From the UHGV virus genome UHGV-0117250: DNA of 38,690 nucleotides, one strand, 5' to 3'. This document shows positions 3,396 to 34,773 of this stretch, one piece after another. The stretch is from a virus. Position numbers and translations under genes: made by a program. A model generated the notes under the pieces. It ran no database searches. It was given only the letters and a program-made list of their open reading frames with translations, and had not been told where the DNA came from. The first letter of the stretch is position 1. Each line of letters starts with the position of its first letter.

Positions 3396-3400
3396 TATCA

Positions 3401-3551
3401 GCCCTCCCATATCTCGTTATCGTTGGCCACATCGCGAGCTTCTTTGCTGACGAAAGCCCACTTAATGCCTTCCTGTAAGGTGCGGAACTTCCAGCTCATG
3501 AATCCGCATGCAGTAACGCAGTACCAACCGTTGATGATTTTCCACTGCATA
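3401..3551 (-). CDS. small hypothetical protein (49 aa), first gene of leftward operon
   Basis: Not in the ORF track (<60 aa). ATG at 3551 with GAGG upstream, stop overlapping the next gene start; sits directly downstream of the leftward operator pair. Confidence 0.3.
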
Positions 3552-3568
3552 ACTTGTTACCTCGGTTT

Positions 3569-3647
3569 GTTACCGTTAAGGTAATAATTATGCGTATCTG
3601 GTTTGATGTCAATAGATATGAGTTAAAAAAATTACCTGTTAGGTAAT
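3569..3647. promoter_or_regulatory. leftward operator region (OL-like): two 17-bp dyad sites
   Basis: gTTACC-GTTAA-GGTAAt at 3569..3585 and the perfect dyad ATTACC-TGTTA-GGTAAT at 3631..3647, between the repressor terminator and the first leftward gene. Confidence 0.5.
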
Positions 3648-3656
3648 CTAACAGGC

Positions 3657-3683
3657 AATAAAAAAGCCGCCAGAAGGCGGCTT
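3657..3683 (-). terminator. rho-independent terminator after repressor gene
   Basis: On the minus strand: GC hairpin GCCGCC-TTCT-GGCGGC followed by a T-run, about 20 nt after the repressor stop at 3704. Confidence 0.6.
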
Positions 3684-3703
3684 ACTTACTGAAAAATATG
3701 ATT

Positions 3704-4288
3704 TTATTGTTTGTTTTTTTCGTTCTGGTTGATGACAAATTCAATGTAACTTTCGATCTTTGCTTTCTCGGTTTCGGGTAACAAAGCGTAGCGCGAGCGG
3801 TCATAGTTGATAGTCGCAGGGTCGTGCGGGTGAATCAGTAATTCATAGCCGTGACGCCCGAATGCGGATGCAACATTCTCCAGGGTGGAAATGGAAACGC
3901 TGACCTCATTGTTTAACAGGCGGCTGATTGTCACCTGGGCGACGCCGGATGCGCGGTGAAGTTTTCCCTGCGTTGAAAGGTCGCGGCTTTCGCTCATCCA
4001 GCGTTCCAGGTTGTGAGCCGCCAGCTGACCAATGTCGCTTGGTCCGACAGGCTGAAAACCTTCCTGAGAAAGCGAGCGATCGATATCAAGCCAGTTACGG
4101 GGTTTATTGGCGGCAGCTTCAATTTTTCGCGCAACCTGGTCGCCGATAACCTTCTTGCCAAGAGCCCAGCGGTTTACCAGATTTGCCTGAGTTCCAAGTT
4201 TTTCTGCCATCCGCGTCTGAACACCATTGAATTCACGGTCGATCAAGTCGTTGAGATTTTGCCTGCGGACGTCCTGGATACTTTTCAT
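3704..4288 (-). CDS. prophage repressor, double-HTH (XRE-type), no peptidase S24 domain
   Basis: 194 aa; two HTH-like segments (around QTRMAEKLGTQANLVNRW and VAQVTISRLLNNEVSVSISTLENVA); divergent from a cro-like gene with dyad operators between them; no Ser/Lys autocleavage-type C-terminus visible. Confidence 0.7.
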   Translation of the reverse strand: MKSIQDVRRQNLNDLIDREFNGVQTRMAEKLGTQANLVNRWALGKKVIGDQVARKIEAAANKPRNWLDIDRSLSQEGFQPVGPSDIGQLAAHNLERWMSESRDLSTQGKLHRASGVAQVTISRLLNNEVSVSISTLENVASAFGRHGYELLIHPHDPATINYDRSRYALLPETEKAKIESYIEFVINQNEKNKQ

Positions 4289-4342
4289 TTTCTGGAAAAT
4301 CGCCTCATATATGAATCAGTAGATGATTCAATTTAAAGCAAT

Positions 4343-4407
4343 ATTACCCAACAGGTAAATGCACCCCATAGGTAACTATCCTTGATTTTTGTTACCTTAT
4401 GGGTGAA
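4343..4407. promoter_or_regulatory. rightward/maintenance operator region (OR-like): three dyad sites
   Basis: ATTACC-CAACA-GGTAAA (4343..4359), GCACC-CCATA-GGTAA (4361..4375) and GTTACC-TTATG-GGTGAA (4391..4407) in the 155-bp divergent region between the repressor ATG (4288) and the cro-like ATG (4443). Confidence 0.55.
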
Positions 4408-4442
4408 TATTTATTATCTGAAATAAATATCAGGCAATAGCT

Positions 4443-4673
4443 ATGAGCGATAACGGACATTTCGATTTCAAAAAGCACTGGCTTGCACTTACTCCGGATG
4501 AGCGTGAAGCCTTCGCACAGGAAGCCGGAACGACGAGTCACTATATCCAGACTCACTTAACAGGTAAGCGCAAAATGCCAGGTAAAGTATTGATGAATGG
4601 GCTTTTTAAAGCCTGTAAAACAAGACAATGGCTGCGCTCAAAAGCAGAACTGGCATACTTCTTCTACTCATGA
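4443..4673 (+). CDS. Cro-like small HTH regulator
   Basis: 76 aa, divergent from the repressor across the operator region; HTH-like segment TTSHYIQTHLTG. Confidence 0.55.
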   Translation: MSDNGHFDFKKHWLALTPDEREAFAQEAGTTSHYIQTHLTGKRKMPGKVLMNGLFKACKTRQWLRSKAELAYFFYS

Positions 4674-4693
4674 TATCCAGCTACAACCCTCTG

Positions 4694-4719
4694 TAGACCG
4701 CCACCCGGCGGTCTTTTCA
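4694..4719 (+). terminator. rho-independent terminator (tR1-like) after cro-like gene
   Basis: Hairpin GACCGCC-ACCC-GGCGGTC followed by TTTTC. Confidence 0.6.
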
Positions 4720-4728
4720 TATCTATTC

Positions 4729-4744
4729 GCACCTTTAAGGTAAT
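4729..4744. promoter_or_regulatory. dyad-motif site upstream of next early gene
   Basis: GCACC-TTTAA-GGTAAT immediately after the terminator; same motif family as the OL/OR sites. Confidence 0.35.
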
Positions 4745-4823
4745 AAAAAACCAAATCTGGTTGATCTTTTTTTTGTGTCAGCACAAAATAACCGTAATCC
4801 CAATACTAATAACAGGGCTTACC

Positions 4824-5024
4824 ATGGAAATCATTACACGTATTGATGCCGCAAAGCGCGGACTTAAACGCTACTACACCGGAAAACCATGTAAGCACGG
4901 ACATGACAGTGAACGCTGGGTTTACAACGGACACTGTGTTGAGTGCACCATGGAATCAAACCGTCGCATCAGGGCAGAGATTAAGCAGATCATGATTAAT
5001 TCCTCCCCACAACATTCAAGCTGA
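4824..5024 (+). CDS. hypothetical Cys-rich (zinc-ribbon-like) protein, cII-position
   Basis: 66 aa from ATG 4824 (track start 4761 is TTG); CKHGH...CVEC pattern; sits between cro-like and the replication initiator. Confidence 0.4.
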   Translation: MEIITRIDAAKRGLKRYYTGKPCKHGHDSERWVYNGHCVECTMESNRRIRAEIKQIMINSSPQHSS

Positions 5025-5039
5025 TAGCGGAGATTAATC

Positions 5040-5855
5040 ATGAGCAGACATGCAACAGATTGGGCCTGGGAGACAGATCCAGGCAGCTCATCATTAAAGC
5101 TCATACTGCTCTCGATGGCTGACAGAGCCGATGAATATAACCTCTGCTACCCCAGCATAGAACGCCTCGTTAAAGACACTTGCCTGAATAAAAAAACCGT
5201 GCAGGCCGGGCTTATATCGCTCATGAAAATGGGGCTTATTTCAGATACCGGAGAGAGAAAGGGAGCGACAAAAAGAGTGCGGGTTTTCTCTCTTAATATA
5301 ACCAAAAAAGGGAACATTAAAGGCAACCTAGAAGGACGTAATGAACCCGAAAACGGTAATGTTCCCGAAAACGGGAATATACCCAAAAACGGGATGTTGA
5401 ATGATCCCAAAAACGGGATGTTGAATGATCCCAAAAACGGGATCCAGAACCAGTCATATAACCAGTCATTTAACCAAGAGAGGGAGAGCAGGACAAAAAC
5501 CGGGGATTCTGTGCCTCATGACCCAGGCGCAAACAACGCCGTGATGAATAACTTTGTTCCTCCTGGTGGGCTAGGGCAATTAGGCAAATTTGTCATGCAT
5601 GAACAATGGCAGCCATCAGATGACTTTCTTCGGAAAAGCTCATTGCAGGGGATCTACCTGGACAGTCTGCCAACGGCACAGGAACTTGCAGAATTCAGAA
5701 TTTACTGGATGGCTGAGGGTAAGGCATACCATCAGGCACAGTGGGAGCAGAAGCTGGCAAGGTGGCTGCAGATTAGCAGACAGAAGCAATCAACATTACC
5801 TGATAACAACGTTCCGCACTGGAACAGCCCTGAAGCGTGGGAGGATTTCTTGTGA
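5040..5855 (+). CDS. replication initiator, lambda O-like
   Basis: GGAG SD then ATG 5040; N-terminal HTH-like region; central repetitive peptide (NGNVPENGNIPKNGMLNDPKNGMLNDPKNG) encoded by DNA iterons; followed by a P-like gene with overlapping stop/start. Confidence 0.7.
   Translation: MSRHATDWAWETDPGSSSLKLILLSMADRADEYNLCYPSIERLVKDTCLNKKTVQAGLISLMKMGLISDTGERKGATKRVRVFSLNITKKGNIKGNLEGRNEPENGNVPENGNIPKNGMLNDPKNGMLNDPKNGIQNQSYNQSFNQERESRTKTGDSVPHDPGANNAVMNNFVPPGGLGQLGKFVMHEQWQPSDDFLRKSSLQGIYLDSLPTAQELAEFRIYWMAEGKAYHQAQWEQKLARWLQISRQKQSTLPDNNVPHWNSPEAWEDFL
5345..5445. repeat. origin-like iteron array (5 direct repeats) inside O-like gene
   Basis: CCC(G/A)AAAACGG(G/T)A repeated five times at 18/18/24/24-bp spacing, followed by a GATC and a short tandem AACCAGTCAT pair (5451..5470). 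Confidence 0.6.
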
Positions 5856-6673: not shown

Positions 6674-6752
6674 ATTACCCATAAGGTAATAAAATATTCT
6701 AAACTCTATTGATTTCGTGTCTTATGTGGTTTTTAATTACCTTAGAGGTAAA
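6674..6752. promoter_or_regulatory. two dyad-motif sites upstream of DUF1064 operon
   Basis: ATTACC-CATAA-GGTAAT (6674..6690) and ATTACC-TTAGA-GGTAAA (6736..6752); the second ends 3 nt before the ATG at 6755. Confidence 0.4.
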
Positions 6753-10211: not shown

Positions 10212-10228
10212 ATTACCACAACGGTAAC
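10212..10228. promoter_or_regulatory. dyad-motif site upstream of terminase genes
   Basis: ATTACC-ACAAC-GGTAAC, 17 nt upstream of the terminase small-subunit start. Confidence 0.35.
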
Positions 10229-10244
10229 AATTACCAGGGTGGTT

Positions 10245-10841
10245 ATGATGCCTGCTGAACCTAAAACATATAAACGCAAATCAACGCAATTTAAGCCACT
10301 AACCGCAATGCAGGAGGCTTATTGCCAGTCATACATCAAAACGCCTGAAAACCAGACTCAGGCAGCGATTAACGCAGGATTCTCCCCAAATACAGCGGCA
10401 GTTAAAGCCAGTGTCATGATGCGCGATGAACGCATTCAAAAACGGATTGCCGAGTTGATGGAGGAGCGCAACAAACGAATGCGCGTCAGTGCCGATTACG
10501 TTCTCATGCGCCTGGTGGAGATCGACCAGATGGACGTGATCGACATCCTCAACGACGATGGGAGCCTTAAGCCAATCCGCGAGTGGCCGAAAATCTGGCG
10601 CACTACGCTTAGTGGCTTTGATCTGTCATCGACCATCATGAACATGAACGAGGATTCGATAGAGACAATCCTCAAAAAAATTAAATGGCCTGACAAGGTG
10701 AAGAACCTCGAACTGATTGGTAAGCACGTCGACGTCAACGCGTTCAAAGAACGCCTGGATGTTAATGTGAATGTGACAATTGCTGATCGCATAGCGGCAG
10801 CCAGGAAGCGACTCAAAGAACGTCAGGATGGTAATCAGTGA
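10245..10841 (+). CDS. terminase small subunit
   Basis: ATG at 10245 within ORF 10167..10841; resembles small-terminase (Terminase_2-type) proteins (...QAAINAGFSPNTAAVKASVMMRDERIQKRIAEL...); directly precedes and overlaps the large subunit. Confidence 0.65.
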   Translation: MMPAEPKTYKRKSTQFKPLTAMQEAYCQSYIKTPENQTQAAINAGFSPNTAAVKASVMMRDERIQKRIAELMEERNKRMRVSADYVLMRLVEIDQMDVIDILNDDGSLKPIREWPKIWRTTLSGFDLSSTIMNMNEDSIETILKKIKWPDKVKNLELIGKHVDVNAFKERLDVNVNVTIADRIAAARKRLKERQDGNQ

Positions 10842-12313
10842 CAGATACAGCGTTATCTCCTGAAGAGCAGTTGATCGAGGATATTGCAGGGTTCACTCAC
10901 GATCCGCTTGGCTATGCCCTCTATGCGTTCCCGTGGGGGGAAGAGGGGACTGAACTGGCACATGCCACCGGCCCACGTCAGTGGCAGGCTGATGCGTTCC
11001 GAGAGATACGTGATCACCTGCAGAATCCAGAGACGCGCTATCAGCCGCTTATGCTGGCACGCGCTTCTGGTCACGGTATTGGTAAATCCGCATTCATCTC
11101 AATGCTGATCAACTGGGGCATGTCCACTTGCGAGGATTGTAAGGTCGTGGTGACCGCCAACACCGACAACCAGCTACGAACGAAGACCTGGCCGGAAATT
11201 ATCAAGTGGTCGAACCTTGCTATCACGAAAGACTGGTTTACCTGTACCGCTACCGCGATGTACAGCAATGATCCTGGGCACGACAAGCGGTGGCGGGCTG
11301 ACGCAATCCCCTGGTCTGAGCACAACACTGAGGCATTCGCCGGACTACACAACGAGCGCAAACGCATCATCGTGGTATTCGATGAAGCGTCGAACATTGC
11401 GGATCTGGTGTGGGAAGTTGCCGAAGGTGCGCTAACGGACGAAGACACTGAGATTATCTGGGTGGCGTTCGGAAACCCGACGCGTAACACCGGGCGTTTC
11501 CGCGAATGTTTCCGCAAATATAAACACCGCTGGAAAACTGCGCAGATTGACAGCCGGACGGTGGAAGGCACTAACAAACAGCAGTTGCAGAAATGGGTTG
11601 ATGACTACGGGGAAGACAGCGACTTCGTTAAAATCCGTGTGCGCGGCATATTCCCGGATGCATCTGAATTGCAGTTTATCCCTACCGGACTTACTGACGA
11701 GGCAATGAAACGGGTGGTCACCGCTGCGCAGGTTGCACATGCTCCGGTGATAATCGGCGTTGACCCGGCATACTCAGGCGTTGATGACGCTGTGATATAC
11801 CTGCGGCAGGGGCTGCACAGTAAGGTGCTGTGGACTGGCAACAAGACCACTGACGATCTGATTATGGCGAAGCGTATCGCTGACTTTGAAGACCAGTACC
11901 AGGCTGACGCAGTGTTCATCGACTTCGGTTACGGAACTGGTCTGAAGTCAATCGGTGACGGCTGGGGTCGTACATGGCAACTTGTTCCGTTCGGTGGCGC
12001 GTCTACTGACCCGCAGATGCTCAACAAGCGTGGGGAGATGTTCAACTCATGTAAGACATGGCTGAGGCTGGGCGGCATGCTGGATGACCAGGAAACTGCA
12101 GACGACCTGTCGGCGGCAGAGTACAAAGTTCGAGTGGACGGTAAAATCGTTATCGAACCGAAGGAAGATATCAAAGAGCGACTTGGGCGTTCGCCGGGTA
12201 AAGGCGATGCGCTGCTGCTGACGTTTGCTTTCCCGGTGTCGAAGCGCCTGCGACTTCCCGGGCAGCAGAACCAGCAAGGCAAGGCGCTTACCGAGTACGA
12301 TCCATATGCTTAG
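10838..12313 (+). CDS. terminase large subunit
   Basis: 491 aa; Walker-A-like ASGHGIGKS; acidic nuclease-type C-terminal region; position and size typical. Confidence 0.8.
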   Translation: MTDTALSPEEQLIEDIAGFTHDPLGYALYAFPWGEEGTELAHATGPRQWQADAFREIRDHLQNPETRYQPLMLARASGHGIGKSAFISMLINWGMSTCEDCKVVVTANTDNQLRTKTWPEIIKWSNLAITKDWFTCTATAMYSNDPGHDKRWRADAIPWSEHNTEAFAGLHNERKRIIVVFDEASNIADLVWEVAEGALTDEDTEIIWVAFGNPTRNTGRFRECFRKYKHRWKTAQIDSRTVEGTNKQQLQKWVDDYGEDSDFVKIRVRGIFPDASELQFIPTGLTDEAMKRVVTAAQVAHAPVIIGVDPAYSGVDDAVIYLRQGLHSKVLWTGNKTTDDLIMAKRIADFEDQYQADAVFIDFGYGTGLKSIGDGWGRTWQLVPFGGASTDPQMLNKRGEMFNSCKTWLRLGGMLDDQETADDLSAAEYKVRVDGKIVIEPKEDIKERLGRSPGKGDALLLTFAFPVSKRLRLPGQQNQQGKALTEYDPYA

Positions 12314-13128
12314 TCTTTATTTTTATCCTCGAAACCTGATAATCCAGATAGAACACCAAAGTTATTAAAAACGTCTGGCTTACCAGATTTTAATCCGGAT
12401 AAGTTGTGTTGCTCCAAAAAGTTGCTAATTGTTTGGCCGTTGCCAAGTGCAAGACTTTTTATTTGAGATTTTTCAGGGTATTTGAGTTTGTATTCGTCGA
12501 AATCATTTTGGAGGGTCTTATATGCCTCATTCATTCTTCCAAGAGTTTCCGATATCTCTTTTAATGAATGATTTAGAGCTGCTAACTGAGCACTGGCGGA
12601 TCTCAATTCGTCATCTTTAGCTTTCAACTCAGCAGTCAATTCCCCCATACTATTCTTTGATCGAATAATCTCTTCTTTCATCTCTTGGATGTCTTTTTCC
12701 GCGCCAGTCTTAACTTTGTCGTATGTAACATCTTTTTTAGCCAATAACCTCTGCAGTCTGGTTTCACGCTGGATTTTTCTTGCCTTCAGGTGATTTTCGA
12801 TTGAGTCATTATTATCAAGAGGCTTTGCTTGCCATACGTTAATGATATTGTTTACCCATGGTAATAGGCAGCAGATAGCAATTACAGATAAGCATGGATA
12901 AAACATAACAGTTTTCCATGTGCTGTTATCTGAGATATATGAAATTTTATCTATTATGTTTGATTTGCTAAAAAATAGATAAAGAATTGATTTCCAGTTG
13001 AAGGCGCACCAGGACATAACAAAAGCACCAAGCACAGGGTTTTTGGCTCGATTCACGGCAGTATTGGCAGTAGATAAAAACAGCTCTTTAAACGATTCAA
13101 ACATGCTAATTACCTTGAAGTTTTTCAT
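12310..13128 (-). CDS. moron: membrane-anchored coiled-coil protein (candidate superinfection-exclusion/abortive-infection factor)
   Basis: Antisense to the structural operon, markedly AT-rich; two hydrophobic segments (PVLGAFVMSWCAFNW; VMFYPCLSVIAICCLLPW) then a long coiled-coil-like C-terminal half; stop codon overlaps the terminase stop. ATG 13128 preferred; an alternative ATG at 13104 has an AAGGT SD. Confidence 0.55.
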   Translation of the reverse strand: MKNFKVISMFESFKELFLSTANTAVNRAKNPVLGAFVMSWCAFNWKSILYLFFSKSNIIDKISYISDNSTWKTVMFYPCLSVIAICCLLPWVNNIINVWQAKPLDNNDSIENHLKARKIQRETRLQRLLAKKDVTYDKVKTGAEKDIQEMKEEIIRSKNSMGELTAELKAKDDELRSASAQLAALNHSLKEISETLGRMNEAYKTLQNDFDEYKLKYPEKSQIKSLALGNGQTISNFLEQHNLSGLKSGKPDVFNNFGVLSGLSGFEDKNKD

Positions 13129-13131
13129 GAT

Positions 13132-13148
13132 TATACCTTTAAGGTAAT
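13132..13148. promoter_or_regulatory. dyad-motif site overlapping moron translation start
   Basis: TATACC-TTTAA-GGTAAT located 4 nt upstream of the moron ATG on the coding strand. Confidence 0.35.
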
Positions 13149-13188: not shown

Positions 13189-13350
13189 AACTGGAAGCAA
13201 TGAGTTATGCCTTCCGTGGCTGTACGTGTTTACAGCATGAAGTCATCGCAATGGCGTCCTGCTGTAAAAAGGGCGGTGATAGTCCTTCAAGGGAAACCAT
13301 CACCGCCAAGCACCTGGAACTTCTGGCATCACGGTCCTTAGGCGTGATTC

Positions 13351-13427
13351 TGGCGTGGCATGCAGGATTCGAACCTGCGACCAACCGCTTAGAAGGCGGT
13401 TGCTCTGTCCAACTGAGCTAATGCCAC
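13351..13427 (-). tRNA. tRNA-Arg (anticodon UCU)
   Basis: Minus-strand 77-nt cloverleaf: 7-bp acceptor stem GTGGCAT/ATGCCAC, D-arm GCTC..GAGC, anticodon stem ACCGC/GCGGT with loop CTTCTAA (anticodon TCT), T-arm GCAGG-TTCGAAT-CCTGC, encoded CCA end. Confidence 0.85.
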
Positions 13428-13748: not shown

Positions 13749-13765
13749 GTTACCTGAAAGGTAAT
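13749..13765. promoter_or_regulatory. dyad-motif site upstream of virion operon
   Basis: GTTACC-TGAAA-GGTAAT; shares the 15-mer ACCTGAAAGGTAATA with the site at 30359..30375. Confidence 0.35.
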
Positions 13766-30002: not shown

Positions 30003-30028
30003 AGGCCGCTCTAGCGGCCTTTTCTTTA
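30003..30028. terminator. bidirectional intrinsic terminator between convergent genes
   Basis: AGGCCGC-TCTA-GCGGCCT followed by TTTCTTT on the plus strand; the stop of the minus-strand gene lies in the T-run. Confidence 0.55.
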
Positions 30029-30283
30029 TGTGGTTTGTTTTCGTAATTGTTCGGCACAATAGTCGAGATGTGTTTGCAGATCCCGCATAGACATCTGTGA
30101 GCTGGTGACGTAGTTAATCAGTGCAGTCAGTTCGGCAAGTGGGCCATCGACATTAAATCCATCCTTATCGAGCTCCCGGAGTAATTTCATCAAGTGCGAT
30201 CCCTCCACCAGTGATCTGACGCCTCCCGGCGTGTGAATCCTTTCGGTAAATCCGTCTTCCAGTGGATAGTGATACTGCTGCAT
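30026..30283 (-). CDS. LexA-regulated small protein (candidate antirepressor)
   Basis: 85 aa from ATG 30283 with GGAG SD (track start 30301 is TTG); a near-consensus LexA box lies about 20 bp upstream. Confidence 0.5.
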   Translation of the reverse strand: MQQYHYPLEDGFTERIHTPGGVRSLVEGSHLMKLLRELDKDGFNVDGPLAELTALINYVTSSQMSMRDLQTHLDYCAEQLRKQTT

Positions 30284-30301
30284 CTTATCTTCTCCATGCA
30301 A

Positions 30302-30323
30302 TAACTGTATAAATATACAGTAT
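30302..30323. promoter_or_regulatory. LexA (SOS) box
   Basis: AACTGTATAAATATACAGTA: CTGT-N8-ACAG with an AT-rich spacer, a near-perfect match to the E. coli LexA consensus TACTGTATATATATACAGTA. Confidence 0.7.
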
Positions 30324-30358
30324 CAAATAATTTATTTGCTATCCAGCACGTTTTGCGA

Positions 30359-30375
30359 ATCACCTGAAAGGTAAT
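30359..30375. promoter_or_regulatory. dyad-motif site between LexA-box gene and tailspike
   Basis: TCACC-TGAAA-GGTAAT; shares the 15-mer ACCTGAAAGGTAATA with the site at 13749..13765. Confidence 0.35.
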
Positions 30376-30478
30376 ATCTGTTCGTATTTATGGGTTGTCT
30401 ATCCATATATGGTTTTTCAGGTAATAGAATAACCGGATATGCGGCGCAACGGGTGCTGCGACTATCTGGAGATTTAAC

Positions 30479-32870: not shown

Positions 32871-34730
32871 ATGGACTTCAGGAAGGATATCAATGGAGTC
32901 AGGGCTATAGCAGTTCTTGCTGTAGTCCTGTTCCACTTCAACAGAGGATGGGTCCCGAGTGGATTTGTTGGCGTAGATGTATTCTTTGTAATTTCTGGTT
33001 TTTTGATGACGTCAATAATATTTGGCGGATTAGAAGGAAATAAATTTTCTCTGTGGGGCTTTTATAAAGCACGAGCCAGAAGGATAGTGCCTGCGCTTGC
33101 CGTTATGCTAATTTGCGTAATGGTATACGGATGGTACAACATGTACACTCCTGAATTTAAGACATTGGCGAAGCACGCTGCGTCAAGCCTTCTATTTGTT
33201 TCAAATATCGTCTATTGGAAGGAGTCAAGCTACTTTGCTCCTGGTGCAGAAGAGAAGTGGTTACTTCATACTTGGTCTCTATCTGTAGAATGGCAATTCT
33301 ATATTATATATCCTTTAGCCATTTATATTATCAGAAAGGCTTTCAGTTTAAAGGTATCTAGGATATTAATTCTGATTGCAGGCCTATTAAGTTTAGCACT
33401 TAGCATTTATGCATCTAGGATTTTAGTTAGCTCATCATATTTCTTGCTTCCAACAAGGGCATGGGAGATGATTGCTGGCGGCGTGGTTTATCTTTTCCCG
33501 ACATCAATATTTAAACGAAAACCTTTCCCATATATCGGGATTGCTACCATATTAGTATCCTGCTTTATTTTTAGCGAGGAATCGTACTGGCCTAGCTACA
33601 ATGCGCTGCTGCCTATCATCGGCACGATGATCATATTGTGGTCGTGTTCTGATAACATTATCTTAGATTCATCTTTTGCGCAAAAGATTGGGTTGTATTC
33701 ATATTCAATTTATTTGTGGCACTGGCCGATCTATCTATATATATATAATACATATGGTGGTGTTTCTATATTAACAACGCTCATTGGAATTGTTGCGTCA
33801 GTGGCGATGGGTATGTTGTCATTTAAATATATAGAAAGTGTTTTCAAAAGTAGAGGCGGCGTTAAAAAGGAGTTTCTGTACTTTGCATCATTAGCTTTAG
33901 CTGTTGGTATATATATTTCTAATGGCGCTAACACTGATATGCGAAGTATCACAAAAACTACCGGTAATGAAACTGTGGTGCATTACGATGGATATCGGTT
34001 TGATAATAATGGGATGTGGGATAAATGTAACAGCAGTGAAAAACTGGATCATATCGATAAATCATGTGTCGATACTGATAAAAGGGGAGGTGTCTTCTTA
34101 TGGGGAGACTCTCACGCGGGAGCACTTTCTTTAGGGATAAGATCACTTCTAAAAGATGGCGTTCCATTCTATCAACTTGCTGCTTCAAGTTGTAAACCGA
34201 GTCTCCATAAATTCCCTGGAGTTATAAGTGCCACAATTGGATGTAATCTATCCAATGAAAAAGCCATTGAAGATATAAATATTGTTAAACCTGATGTTGT
34301 GGTATTAGCTCAGAGATTCCAGCATGAAGAAACAAACTGGCAAAGCATCGCTGAGAAAATACACTCACTGGGTGTTAAGAAAGTTATAGTCCTTGGTCCT
34401 GTTCCTCAGTGGAAAGGGAGCCTGCCGCTAATTGTTGCGAAAAACTACAATCCTAATGATATTTACATTGATGAACGATTTTTGGATAAACAGATTGTCG
34501 CGACAAATAACAAAATGAAGACGATATCAAAAGACAATGAAGGTTATGATTTTGTCGACATACTTGATCACTTATGCACACATGAAGGTTCAGAACTGAA
34601 GTGTAGGGCAAGGGTAGATAGTGGCTTTACGCTTATGTCTATGGATTACGGTCACCCTACTGATGAAGGGTCACTGTTCATCGGCAAACACATAATTAAA
34701 AGCCACCTCCCAACAAGCATAACCAAGTAA
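32871..34730 (+). CDS. O-antigen acetyltransferase (acyltransferase-3 membrane domain + SGNH domain)
   Basis: 619 aa; multi-TM N-terminal half typical of acyltransferase family 3 (OafA/Oac-like); C-terminal domain with GDSH-type motif (FLWGDSHAG); AT-rich; directly downstream of the tailspike. Confidence 0.75.
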   Translation: MDFRKDINGVRAIAVLAVVLFHFNRGWVPSGFVGVDVFFVISGFLMTSIIFGGLEGNKFSLWGFYKARARRIVPALAVMLICVMVYGWYNMYTPEFKTLAKHAASSLLFVSNIVYWKESSYFAPGAEEKWLLHTWSLSVEWQFYIIYPLAIYIIRKAFSLKVSRILILIAGLLSLALSIYASRILVSSSYFLLPTRAWEMIAGGVVYLFPTSIFKRKPFPYIGIATILVSCFIFSEESYWPSYNALLPIIGTMIILWSCSDNIILDSSFAQKIGLYSYSIYLWHWPIYLYIYNTYGGVSILTTLIGIVASVAMGMLSFKYIESVFKSRGGVKKEFLYFASLALAVGIYISNGANTDMRSITKTTGNETVVHYDGYRFDNNGMWDKCNSSEKLDHIDKSCVDTDKRGGVFLWGDSHAGALSLGIRSLLKDGVPFYQLAASSCKPSLHKFPGVISATIGCNLSNEKAIEDINIVKPDVVVLAQRFQHEETNWQSIAEKIHSLGVKKVIVLGPVPQWKGSLPLIVAKNYNPNDIYIDERFLDKQIVATNNKMKTISKDNEGYDFVDILDHLCTHEGSELKCRARVDSGFTLMSMDYGHPTDEGSLFIGKHIIKSHLPTSITK

Positions 34731-34732
34731 CA

Positions 34733-34758
34733 GAAGCCCACTCCGGTGGGCTTTTTAA
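34733..34758 (+). terminator. rho-independent terminator after acetyltransferase
   Basis: AGCCCAC-TCCG-GTGGGCT followed by TTTTTAAT. Confidence 0.6.
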
Positions 34759-34773
34759 TACCCGTAAGGTAAT
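34757..34773. promoter_or_regulatory. dyad-motif site upstream of lysis cassette
   Basis: ATACC-CGTAA-GGTAAT immediately after the terminator. Confidence 0.35.

What the first reader, a model, noticed from the sequence alone, without database searches (positions are those of the whole stretch)
3569..4744. Lambda-like genetic switch built from a non-lambda repressor: OL pair, OR triplet, terminators and a likely leaderless repressor mRNA
The region has two operator sites before the leftward operon, three unequal sites between the divergent repressor and cro-like genes, an intrinsic terminator after each of these two genes, and a further site after the cro terminator. The repressor ATG at 4288 has no plausible SD within 5-12 nt, which suggests leaderless translation as for lambda cI from PRM. 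The circuit logic looks lambda-like although the repressor is a double-HTH protein without a peptidase domain.
Basis: partly seen in the sequence, partly recalled or inferred. Interest (0 to 1): 0.45.

Follow-up and report, generated by a model that had tools for sequence, protein, structure and literature searches.

The report
Known Rep–Ant phage immunity switch
This is the immunity region of a phiV10/epsilon15-type temperate E. coli phage: its repressor and SOS-controlled antirepressor belong to the Rep/Ant system already solved for Salmonella phage SPC32H, so the layout is real but not new, and the proposed leaderless repressor mRNA is not favoured by comparison with relatives.

Summary
The operator motif TTACC-N5-GGTAA occurs exactly 7 times in the window against about 0 expected, and 12 times with one mismatch allowed against about 1.2.

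The window is a phiV10-species Uetakevirus. Its repressor is 100% identical to phiV10 gp40 and vB_EcoP_ZX5 ORF21. It is a full-length homologue of SPC32H Rep (PDB 5D50_A, E=4e-42). The cognate antirepressor Ant (5D50_E, E=1.8e-47) lies at 30029-30283 behind a perfect LexA box. That accounts for a repressor with no peptidase domain.

The layout resembles lambda: a divergent rep/cro pair, a tripartite OR and an OL pair. The circuit differs in several ways:
- Operators sit at about 9 loci across the genome.
- Operator pairs are helically phased (62 or 73-76 bp apart).
- The cro-like gene is monocistronic, and the replication operon has its own operator-flanked promoter.
- The best operator overlies the likely rep promoter.

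Leaderless translation is not favoured. A promoter firing at the ATG scores 1.1 bits. The only rep-strand promoter elements conserved in 13 lineages lie 32-47 nt upstream. Two distant homologues carry normal SDs. The epsilon15 GenBank record already annotates the same motif as repressor sites. I rate this as already known, low interest.

The parts
3570..3584 (.). OL1 operator, TTACCGTTAAGGTAA. Its last base is the last base of the PL -10.
   Evidence: Exact motif. Same position in phiV10, Tyrion, epsilon15 and SPC32H.
3584..3612 (-). PL promoter: -35 TTGACA (3612-3607), 17 nt spacer, -10 AATTAT (3589-3584). It drives the leftward early operon, whose first gene is 3550-3398.
   Evidence: Promoter scan, 10 of 12 matches. 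Position-weight score 12.5 bits.
3632..3646 (.). OL2 operator, TTACCTGTTAGGTAA. It lies 62 bp centre-to-centre from OL1, about -62 from the PL start site.
   Evidence: Exact motif. Spacing of 62-63 bp or 73-76 bp in 15 lineages.
3631..3659 (-). Hairpin of 12 pairs followed by T7. It embeds OL2 and may be a second terminator for rep read-through.
   Evidence: -15.3 kcal/mol, z=-7.2.
3664..3683 (-). Intrinsic terminator of the rep transcript.
   Evidence: -21.1 kcal/mol. Annotated as a terminator in phiV10.
3704..4288 (-). rep, 194 aa. SPC32H-type Rep: N-terminal HTH DNA-binding domain, middle HTH-like dimerisation domain, C-terminal tetramerisation and Ant-binding domain.
   Evidence: PDB 5D50_A, E=4e-42 over residues 1-190. 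100% identical to phiV10p40 and ZX5 ORF21. Pfam result. Domain roles from PMC9986798.
4330..4359 (-). Candidate rep promoter (PRM): -35 TTTACC (4359-4354, the left half of OR-a), 18 nt spacer, -10 TAAATT (4335-4330). Predicted start site about 4323, giving a leader of about 35 nt with no SD.
   Evidence: Top or second-ranked candidate in all 13 lineages, at a fixed register to OR-a, while the distance to the ATG varies from 32 to 42 nt. The leader is unstructured, -1.9 kcal/mol. This is an inference; no start-site data exist.
4344..4358 (.). OR-a operator, TTACCCAACAGGTAA. It overlies the -35 and spacer of the candidate PRM.
   Evidence: Exact motif. The rep-strand left half is invariably TTTACC in all 16 rep-upstream sequences examined, about 14 of them distinct.
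4361..4375 (.). OR-b operator, GCACCCCATAGGTAA. It lies 17 bp from OR-a and 31 bp from OR-c, between the -35 elements of PRM and PR.
   Evidence: Spacings of 17 bp and 30-31 bp are conserved.
4392..4406 (.). OR-c operator, TTACCTTATGGGTGA. It lies inside the PR core.
4382..4417 (+). PR promoter. The -35 TTGATT (4382-4387) is invariant in the 6 phage lineages aligned, and TTGAT is kept in most of the 10 further genomic loci. The -10 is GAATAT (4405-4410). An alternative pairing is TTGTTA (4389-4394), 17 nt, TATTAT (4412-4417).
4443..4673 (+). Cro-like small regulator, 76 aa.
   Evidence: PHROG 35 'transcriptional repressor', E=5.6e-13. No Pfam match. It is phiV10p41.
4695..4714 (+). Intrinsic terminator directly after the cro-like gene.
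   Evidence: Annotated in phiV10.
4729..4743 (.). Weak operator, GCACCTTTAAGGTAA, with one degenerate half. It lies about -60 from the next promoter's start site.
   Evidence: A site with one degenerate half is kept at this position in all 7 lineages. BUCT554 is the weakest, with only the GGTAA half intact.
4761..4789 (+). Promoter of the replication operon: -35 TTGATC (4761-4766), 17 nt spacer, -10 CAAAAT (4784-4789).
   Evidence: 10.3 bits. Conserved in 7 lineages.
6675..6751 (+). Operator pair 6675-6689 and 6737-6751, 62 bp apart. The pair brackets the promoter TTGATT (6709-6714), 17 nt, TTTAAT (6732-6737), which precedes the DUF1064 gene. The geometry is the same as at PL.
   Evidence: The 62 bp pair is present in all five genomes.
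10213..10245 (.). Adjacent operator pair, 18 bp apart, abutting the terS start codon.
   Evidence: Annotated 'repressor' in the epsilon15 record.
13750..13764 (.). Operator upstream of the gp3/portal operon.
   Evidence: Annotated in epsilon15.
30029..30283 (-). ant, an antirepressor of 85 aa.
   Evidence: PDB 5D50_E, E=1.8e-47, about 87% identity.
30305..30320 (.). LexA (SOS) box, CTGTATAAATATACAG, in the ant promoter.
   Evidence: Conserved in SPC32H, epsilon15 and phiV10.
30360..30374 (.). Operator (1 mismatch) upstream of the ant promoter, in the ant/tailspike intergenic region.
34758..34772 (.). Operator (1 mismatch) after a terminator and before the lysis cassette.

Best explanation
The region is the immunity centre of a phiV10-species Uetakevirus and works as an SPC32H-type Rep/Ant switch.

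Lysogen (inferred from homology):
- Rep binds the palindrome ATTACC-N5-GGTAAT as a tetramer that reads two operators at once.
- OR-c blocks PR, which transcribes the cro-like gene.
- OL1, together with OL2 on the same helical face 62 bp away, blocks PL.
- Equivalent operator-promoter modules silence the replication operon (4729 site with the 4761-4789 promoter) and the next rightward operon (6675/6737).
- Operators also sit directly before terS, the portal operon and the lysis cassette and are predicted to silence them. No convincing sigma-70 promoter was found at terS or before the portal operon, and the pre-lysis promoter was not scored.
- OR-a overlies the -35 and spacer of the most likely rep promoter. 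Rep therefore limits its own synthesis.

rep expression (inferred): rep is transcribed with a leader of about 35-46 nt. It is translated inefficiently without a normally spaced SD. The leader is unstructured, a purine block sits at -18 to -15, and the second codon is AAA.

Induction (shown for SPC32H, inferred here): DNA damage cleaves LexA, which derepresses ant. Ant then dismantles the Rep tetramer, so all operators are vacated together.

No antitermination step is needed. The early operons downstream of the cro and P terminators carry their own operator-flanked promoters.
For: Identity of the parts:
- 97-98% nucleotide identity to phiV10, PAS61, phiv142-3 and ZX5.
- Rep matches 5D50_A at E=4e-42 over its full length. 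Ant matches 5D50_E at E=1.8e-47.
- The LexA box is conserved with SPC32H.
- No peptidase domain.

Function:
- Overexpressing the identical repressor abolishes free phage and lowers lysis-gene transcripts by 99.9% (PMC9782041).
- phiV10-species prophages are induced by a DNA-damaging microcin (bioRxiv 10.64898/2026.05.26.727859).
- Rep binds palindromic sites as a tetramer with trans-paired DNA-binding domains, and Ant splits the tetramer (PMC9638917; PMC9986798).

Operators:
- 7 exact sites against 0 expected.
- 12-18 sites per genome in five genomes at syntenic positions, against about 1.2 expected.
- Seven are annotated 'protein_bind: repressor' in epsilon15 record AY150271.2.
- OL-type pair spacing is 62-63 bp or 73-76 bp, meaning whole helical turns.
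- OR spacings of 17 bp and 30-31 bp are conserved.

Promoters:
- PL scores 12.5 bits, and a replication-operon promoter is conserved in 7 lineages.
- The PRM candidate is conserved in 13 lineages at a fixed register to OR-a, with a variable leader of 32-42 nt.
Against: - No Rep-DNA binding, start-site or expression data exist for this phage or were accessible. The primary SPC32H and epsilon15 papers are not held.
- The PRM candidate has a weak -10. In several lineages it reads TTTAAT, which lacks the conserved A at -11. A second candidate exists with -10 TAATAT at 4347-4342.
- If OR-a, the best consensus match, occludes PRM, how Rep is maintained in a lysogen is unexplained.
- The Rep C-terminal half is only about 45% identical to SPC32H Rep, so tetramerisation and Ant binding are inferred.
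- ZX5 and phiV10 also carry a Bro-N 'anti-repressor' that this window lacks.
Confidence: 0.8

Rival explanations
1. One reading: the rep mRNA made in the lysogen starts at, or within a few nucleotides of, the ATG at 4288. It would be translated as a leaderless message, as lambda cI is from PRM.
For: - No SD within 12 nt of the ATG.
- A normally spaced SD is absent in 11 of 13 lineages.
- In the epsilon15/SPC32H lineage, a good promoter (TTAGGT, 17 nt, TACAAT) ends 4 nt before the ATG. It scores 8.0 bits, the 99th percentile.
Against: - In this window the best promoter compatible with a start at the ATG is TCTACT-16-GATTTT. It scores 1.1 bits, the 75th percentile of random positions. In the close relatives BUCT554 and L088 the score is negative.
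- Pantoea (AAGGA, 6 nt, ATG) and Samsonia homologues have SDs and so must have leaders.
- A purine block (GAG, GGA or AGG) is held at -18 to -15 in 11 of 13 lineages. That is pointless upstream of a leaderless start.
- The conserved rep-strand promoter elements lie 32-47 nt upstream.
Confidence: 0.15
2. True lambda logic: Rep at OR-b contacts RNA polymerase and activates PRM, as cI does at OR2. OR-a would be filled only at high Rep concentration, as OR3 is. This would give positive then negative autoregulation.
For: - OR-b is centred about -45 from the candidate PRM start site, close to lambda OR2 at -42.
- The candidate PRM is only moderate, at 9.5 bits.
- The three-site layout and its spacings are conserved.
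Against: - OR-a is an exact consensus site in every lineage. In the window's group OR-b is the weakest site, with 2 mismatches. This is the reverse of lambda's OR3-weakest order.
- Rep is reported to bind as a tetramer using two operators at once. Site-by-site filling is therefore not expected.
- No activation data exist.
Confidence: 0.2
3. The palindromes are primarily sites for another protein rather than Rep. Candidates are the cro-like product or a late regulator.
For: No binding data exist for this phage. Cro proteins usually share operators with their repressor, so dual use is likely at OR.
Against: - The motif is kept unchanged wherever the Rep N-terminal DNA-binding domain is conserved (NLVNRW, WLD), across 41-88% identical Reps.
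- Sites overlap the -10 and start region of the early promoters PL and P6700, and lie within the PR core. This is what lysogenic repression requires.
- The epsilon15 depositors assign them to the repressor.
Confidence: 0.05

Closest known systems
Salmonella phage SPC32H Rep/Ant antirepression switch (Kim & Ryu 2013, J Virol 87:11775; Kim et al. 2016, PNAS 113:E2480; PDB 5D50 and 5D4Z)
   Same: - Same genus (Uetakevirus) and same gene order.
- Rep is homologous over its full length (E=4e-42).
- Ant is about 87% identical, with the same LexA box and the same Rep operator upstream.
- Same operator motif, at syntenic positions.
   Different: - Rep is only about 42% identical overall.
- OL has two sites here against three in SPC32H and epsilon15.
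- OR-b is degenerate here.
- SPC32H has a promoter-like TACAAT 4 nt before its rep ATG, which this phage lacks.
Salmonella phage epsilon15 immunity region (Kropinski et al. 2007; GenBank AY150271.2)
   Same: The same ATTACC-N5-GGTAAT palindromes are annotated as repressor-binding sites before terS, before the portal operon, before the tailspike, at OL, and before the gene following the replication module.
   Different: The record annotates none of its three OR sites and only one member of the 62 bp pair. Its repressor is 42% identical to this one.
Phage lambda cI/Cro switch (OR1-3, OL1-3, PRM/PR)
   Same: - Divergent repressor and cro genes.
- Three operators between them, overlapping back-to-back promoters.
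- A multi-site OL.
- A terminator after cro.
   Different: - No S24 peptidase domain and no RecA-dependent autocleavage; induction is by an antirepressor.
- The repressor is a tetramer with trans-paired DNA-binding domains.
- The PRM-proximal operator is the strongest, not the weakest.
- The cro-like gene is monocistronic, with no sign of N-type antitermination.
- Operators also guard the late, lysis and ant genes.
- A leaderless repressor mRNA is not supported.
Dispersed-operator phage repressors (P1 C1; mycobacteriophage L5 gp71 'stoperators'). Cited from general knowledge.
   Same: One repressor has a dozen or more sites spread over the genome, in front of many operons.
   Different: The sites here are symmetric palindromes, mostly at promoters and often in phased pairs. 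P1 and L5 sites are asymmetric, and L5 stoperators depend on orientation and lie within operons.
LexA-controlled antirepressors of phage 186 (Tum) and Gifsy prophages. Cited from general knowledge and PMC7380047.
   Same: The SOS signal reaches an uncleavable repressor through a small LexA-repressed antirepressor.
   Different: The proteins are unrelated. SPC32H-type Ant acts by dismantling a repressor tetramer rather than competing for the DNA-binding surface.

Membership tests
SPC32H-type Rep/Ant switch | Repressor homologous to Rep over all three domains (DNA-binding, middle dimerisation, C-terminal tetramerisation/Ant-binding). | tested here: met
   phmmer against PDB: 5D50_A, E=4e-42, query residues 1-190 aligned to chain residues 2-197.
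SPC32H-type Rep/Ant switch | A small Ant antirepressor is encoded in the same phage. | tested here: met
   Window 30029-30283 (-) matches 5D50_E, E=1.8e-47.
SPC32H-type Rep/Ant switch | The ant promoter carries a LexA box. | tested here: met
   CTGTATAAATATACAG at 30305-30320, aligned with the SPC32H, epsilon15 and phiV10 boxes.
SPC32H-type Rep/Ant switch | The repressor lacks a self-cleaving S24 peptidase domain. | tested here: met
   Pfam finds only HTH families. NCBIfam finds nothing above cut-off.
SPC32H-type Rep/Ant switch | Rep tetramerises through C-terminal aromatic residues (SPC32H F187 and F190) and binds two palindromes in trans. | not testable with these tools
   The equivalent residues, Y181 and F184, are conserved, and F184 is invariant. 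Phased operator pairs fit this mode. Oligomeric state and binding need experiments.
Lambda-type cI/Cro switch | Divergent repressor and cro genes separated by a tripartite operator that overlaps two back-to-back promoters. | tested here: met
   Three sites at 4344, 4361 and 4392. PR -35 at 4382-4387 and PRM candidate -35 at 4359-4354.
Lambda-type cI/Cro switch | The repressor carries a LexA-like S24 domain and is inactivated by RecA-stimulated autocleavage. | tested here: not met
   No peptidase domain. The homologue SPC32H Rep is inactivated by Ant.
Lambda-type cI/Cro switch | The repressor mRNA from PRM is leaderless. | tested here: inconclusive
   No SD. However, a promoter compatible with a start at the ATG scores only 1.1 bits, and the conserved promoter elements lie 32-47 nt upstream. 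Start-site mapping is needed.
Lambda-type cI/Cro switch | The PRM-occluding operator (OR3) is the weakest of the three. | tested here: not met
   OR-a is an exact consensus match in all lineages. OR-b and OR-c carry the mismatches. This judges sequence match only; affinities were not measured.
Lambda-type cI/Cro switch | The early operons are extended through terminators by N-type antitermination. | tested here: not met
   The cro terminator is followed in 7 lineages by a conserved operator and promoter (TTGATC, 16-17 nt, CAAAAT) for the replication genes. No N-like gene was recognised. This is a sequence-level inference.
Dispersed-operator repressors (P1 C1 / L5 gp71) | Many operators are spread across the genome. 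| tested here: met
   12 sites with at most 1 mismatch, at about 9 loci, against about 1.2 expected. They are syntenic in five genomes.
Dispersed-operator repressors (P1 C1 / L5 gp71) | Sites are asymmetric and depend on orientation. | tested here: not met
   The sites are perfect or near-perfect palindromes.

The most novel reading that the evidence does not exclude
Rep tetramers might clamp each promoter through helically phased operator pairs. Pairs are 62-63 bp or 73-76 bp apart around the PL-type promoters, 30-31 bp apart at OR-b/OR-c, and 17-18 bp apart at OR-a/OR-b and at terS. One antirepressor event would then release at least six separately terminated operons at once, replacing lambda's antitermination cascade. 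In addition, rep may use an unusual, deliberately weak initiation signal: a purine block held 14-15 nt from the AUG on an unstructured leader. Neither point appears in the literature I could read.
Probability: 0.35. Interest if true: 0.45.

Novelty: already known. Interest (0 to 1): 0.2.

Why it matters
It matters little as a discovery:
- The phage type, its repressor and the Rep/Ant induction mechanism are all published.
- The operator motif is already annotated in the epsilon15 GenBank record.

The useful residue is a complete, comparative operator and promoter map for phiV10-type phages. The ZX5 authors explicitly said the mechanism was still unresolved. These phages are used as E. coli O157 reporter and engineering chassis.

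The map also gives three testable predictions:
- phased looping between the two members of each 62 bp operator pair (OL1/OL2 around PL; 6675/6737 around the next rightward promoter);
- a monocistronic cro-like gene;
- a rep leader of about 35 nt without an SD.

Tried and rejected
- **Primary papers not available.** Kropinski 2007 (PMC2698709), Kim & Ryu 2013 (PMC3807360) and Kim 2016 (PMC4983836 and by DOI) are not held. What they say about operators or start sites could not be checked. I relied on secondary summaries and the GenBank annotation.
- **Viral-contig scan.** The scan with Rep returned only 100%-identical copies and was useless for footprinting. I replaced it with tblastn of the phage collection and a profile scan of genomes, which gave 10 diverse loci.
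- **Text searches.** A search for the motif found nothing relevant. A search on 'Uetakevirus' plus 'repressor' added no operator or promoter mapping; its one useful hit was the bioRxiv induction result read.
- **RNA families.** Rfam found only the tRNA, and no RNA family in the switch.
- **Rejected promoter candidates:**
  - TTGAAT (4331-4326) as the PRM -35, because no -10 lies at a legal spacing.
  - TTCATA-17-GAAAAT as PRM, because its -10 ends in the ATG and the start site would fall inside the gene.
- **IHF site.** I looked for one between OR-a and the rep ATG, where epsilon15 has one annotated. By eye there are only matches with 2 mismatches, so this is left open.
- **Not run.** Structure prediction and fold search were unnecessary, because the PDB sequence match covers the whole protein.
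Full report
**What the window is**

The stretch 3400-5100 is 98.4-98.5% identical to Escherichia phages phiV10, vB_EcoP_PAS61 and the O157 typing phages. The first 25 kb is 97-98% identical to phiv142-3, PAS61 and vB_EcoP_ZX5. The window is therefore a phiV10-species member of the genus Uetakevirus, the epsilon15-like temperate podophages. The phiV10 record already calls the 194-aa gene a 'putative transcriptional repressor' with two HTH motifs.

**Checking the observation**

The operator-like palindrome is TTACC-N5-GGTAA; with flanks it reads ATTACC-N5-GGTAAT.
- Exact matches lie at 3570 and 3632 (OL pair) and at 4344 (OR-a).
- A 1-mismatch match lies at 4392 (OR-c).
- 2-mismatch matches lie at 4361 (OR-b) and 4729 (after the cro terminator).
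- The window holds 7 exact copies against 0.00 in shuffles. With one mismatch allowed it holds 12 against about 1.2 expected.

The terminators fold well:
- after rep: -21.1 kcal/mol;
- after the cro-like gene: -15.0 kcal/mol;
- a further hairpin plus T7 that contains OL2: -15.3 kcal/mol.

PL is a strong sigma-70 match, TTGACA-17-AATTAT at 3612-3584, and its last base is the first base of OL1.

The rep start is secure, because MKSI is invariant in 20 homologues sharing 41-88% identity. Its best SD-like element, GAGG, ends 14 nt upstream. That is the longest spacing among 54 phiV10 genes.

Pfam gives HTH_3 at residues 106-147, a weak HTH-like match at 21-61, and no peptidase.

**What the repressor is**

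Against the PDB, the protein matches the full-length repressor of Salmonella phage SPC32H (5D50 chain A, E=4e-42, residues 1-190).

A small ORF on the minus strand at 30029-30283 matches the SPC32H antirepressor Ant (5D50 chain E, E=1.8e-47, about 87% identity). It is preceded by a perfect LexA box, CTGTATAAATATACAG, at 30305-30320. The whole ant promoter region aligns with those of SPC32H, epsilon15 and phiV10, including a Rep operator upstream.

Secondary sources summarise the SPC32H work:
- Rep binds palindromic DNA as a tetramer. The paired DNA-binding domains come from different dimers.
- A tetrameric Ant splits the Rep tetramer (PMC9638917).
- Rep has an N-terminal DNA-binding domain, a middle dimerisation domain and a C-terminal tetramerisation and Ant-binding domain (PMC9986798).

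The missing peptidase is explained by antirepressor-based induction.

Two functional results fit this:
- Overexpressing the identical protein (ZX5 ORF21) abolishes free phage and cuts lysis-gene transcripts by more than 99.9% (PMC9782041).
- phiV10-species prophages are induced by a DNA-damaging microcin.

**The operators form a genome-wide set**

In window coordinates, further sites lie at:
- 6675 and 6737;
- 10213 and 10231;
- 13133;
- 13750;
- 30360;
- 34758.

Scans of phiV10, Tyrion, epsilon15 and SPC32H find 14-18 sites each. They sit at the same relative places:
- an 18-bp pair abutting terS;
- one site before the portal operon;
- one in the ant/tailspike gap;
- one before the lysis cassette;
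- one near int;
- the OL set;
- the OR triplet;
- a pair before the gene that follows the replication module.

The epsilon15 GenBank record already labels seven of these 'protein_bind: repressor'. It labels none of its three OR sites.

The motif is the same although the repressors are only 42% identical. This fits the conserved N-terminal domain.

**Geometry**

OL1 and OL2 are 62 bp apart centre to centre. So is the 6675/6737 pair.

In both cases the downstream site starts at the last base of the -10, and the upstream site ends 19 nt before the -35.

The 62-bp spacing recurs at both loci in all five genomes. In ten further prophages with 42-75% identical Rep, the OL spacing is 62, 62, 62, 62, 63, 62 and 62, or 73, 74 and 75. 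A third site, where present, lies 76 bp on. These values differ by whole helical turns. That argues for same-face cooperative binding or looping, which suits a tetramer with two DNA-reading heads.

At OR the spacings of 17 bp and 30-31 bp are likewise conserved. Pairs of middle domains in the Rep tetramer are about 100 Å apart, which is roughly 30 bp of DNA. One tetramer could therefore span OR-b and OR-c. This last point is my inference.

**Promoters at OR and the leaderless question**

Aligning the intergenic region of six phage lineages (159-161 nt in all) shows four conserved features:
- three operators at fixed positions;
- an invariant TTGATT, which is the PR -35 at 4382-4387;
- OR-c sitting inside the PR core;
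- a conserved block just beyond OR-a.

I scored sigma-70 promoters on the rep strand in 13 lineages.
- One candidate is top or second-ranked in every lineage: -35 TTTACC, then 17-18 nt, then -10 TAAATT, TTTAAT, TCTAAT or GATAAT.
- Its -35 is the left half of OR-a, at window 4359-4354. Its -10 is at window 4335-4330.
- Its register to OR-a is fixed, with the OR-a centre at -26 to -28.
- Its distance to the ATG varies from 32 to 42 nt.
- OR-a reads TTTACC in all 16 sequences examined, while other sites vary at that flank.
- A second possible -10 (TAATAT, 4347-4342) lies even further upstream.

A promoter that would start at the rep ATG scores 1.1 bits in the window, the 75th percentile of random positions. 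It scores below zero in two close relatives. In epsilon15 and SPC32H, TTAGGT-17-TACAAT ends 4 nt before the ATG and scores 8.0 bits, the 99th percentile. Leaderless initiation is therefore conceivable in that lineage.

Two more observations argue for a leader:
- The Pantoea homologue has AAGGA 6 nt before its ATG, and the Samsonia homologue has GGTGA.
- Eleven of 13 lineages keep a purine block (GAG, GGA or AGG) at -18 to -15, which makes no sense upstream of a leaderless start.

The predicted 35-nt leader is unstructured, at -1.9 kcal/mol.

My reading is that rep has a leader of about 35-46 nt and a deliberately poor initiation region. I put leaderless translation at about 15% for this phage. 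No start-site data were available.

**After the cro-like gene**

The cro-like gene matches PHROG 35, 'transcriptional repressor'.

In seven lineages its terminator is followed by three elements:
- an operator with one degenerate half;
- about 17 nt of spacer;
- a conserved promoter, TTGATC, 16-17 nt, CAAAAT (window 4761-4766 and 4784-4789; 10.3 bits).

The cro-like gene is thus monocistronic, and the replication genes have their own Rep-flanked promoter.

The same arrangement of terminator, operator or operators, and promoter recurs before the DUF1064 gene. A terminator followed by operators, but without a convincing sigma-70 promoter, recurs before terS and before the lysis cassette. No antitermination is needed, and no N-like protein was recognised.

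**Comparison with lambda**

The layout is lambda-like. OR-c corresponds to OR1, OR-b to OR2 and OR-a to OR3. There is a multi-site OL and a terminator after cro.

The logic differs:
- Induction is by a LexA-controlled antirepressor, not autocleavage.
- The repressor is a two-headed tetramer.
- The PRM-occluding operator is the best consensus match rather than the weakest.
- Operators also guard late, lysis and ant genes, as in P1 or L5, but here they are palindromic.
- The early operons are separately promoted.

How Rep synthesis is sustained if OR-a is the tightest site is not explained by anything I found.

**Verdict**

- The system is already known. It is the SPC32H Rep/Ant switch with epsilon15-annotated operators, and the proteins are identical to published phiV10 and ZX5 genes.
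- What is new here is only descriptive: a full operator and promoter map, the helical phasing, the monocistronic cro-like gene and the PRM prediction.

**Limits**

The three primary papers could not be read. Some of these details may already be published there.

Noticed in passing
window 30026-30375: A homologue of the SPC32H-type antirepressor Ant (85 aa, minus strand) sits behind a perfect LexA box (30305-30320). A Rep operator (30360-30374) lies upstream. This is the induction arm of the switch, 26 kb away from the repressor.
   Followed up: yes
window 6675-6751; 10213-10245; 13133-13147; 13750-13764; 34758-34772: Further Rep operator sites lie in front of the DUF1064 operon, terS, a leftward 273-aa ORF, the portal operon and the lysis cassette. 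They are syntenic in five Uetakevirus genomes. Only some are annotated in the epsilon15 record.
   Followed up: yes
window 4303-4306 (rep strand, -18 to -15 from the ATG): A purine block (GAGG here; GAG, GGA, GGG or AGG in relatives) is held at a fixed 14-15 nt from the rep start codon in 11 of 13 lineages, while the flanks diverge. It could be a long-spaced or standby SD. It remains unexplained.
   Followed up: partly
window 4418-4433: The quasi-palindrome CTGAAATAAATATCAG (CTGA-N8-TCAG) lies in the 5' UTR of the cro-like gene. It is almost invariant in the phiV10, Tyrion, Citrobacter and Kluyvera lineages and absent from the epsilon15 lineage. It is not a LexA box. It might be a site for the cro-like protein or another regulator.
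   Followed up: no
window 4306-4331 (rep strand): Conserved blocks TAATTGA and ATTCA lie between OR-a and the rep ATG in the phiV10-type lineages. The epsilon15 record annotates an IHF site at the equivalent place. By eye only matches with 2 mismatches to the IHF consensus are present here.
   Followed up: partly
window 13351-13427 (-): A tRNA-Arg (UCU) gene lies between terL and the portal operon, as in SPC32H. The 13750 operator overlaps a leftward promoter-like TTGACA-17-TACCTT that points at it.
   Followed up: partly
window 12313-13131 (-): A 273-aa ORF has no Pfam match. The operator at 13133-13147 abuts its ATG and overlaps a perfect TATAAT (GGTATAATcATG). The same 17-mer, ATTACCTTAAAGGTATA, lies just upstream of int in phiV10 and SPC32H.
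   Followed up: partly
window 30411-30425: An isolated operator half-site, GGTAAT within GGTTTTTCAGGTAAT, lies near the tailspike start and is conserved in four phages.
   Followed up: no
L003 (epsilon15) 33341-33404; L085 (SPC32H) 34390-34453: epsilon15 and SPC32H have the same operator consensus as this E. coli phage, although their repressors are only 42% identical. Cross-immunity between E. coli phiV10-type and Salmonella epsilon15-type phages looks possible. In those two phages a TACAAT lies 4 nt before the rep ATG, so leaderless rep mRNA is more plausible there.
   Followed up: partly
window 13220-13235: There is a second CTGT-N8-ACAG match, CTGTACGTGTTTACAG. Its centre is GC-containing, so it is probably a chance match rather than a LexA box.
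   Followed up: no
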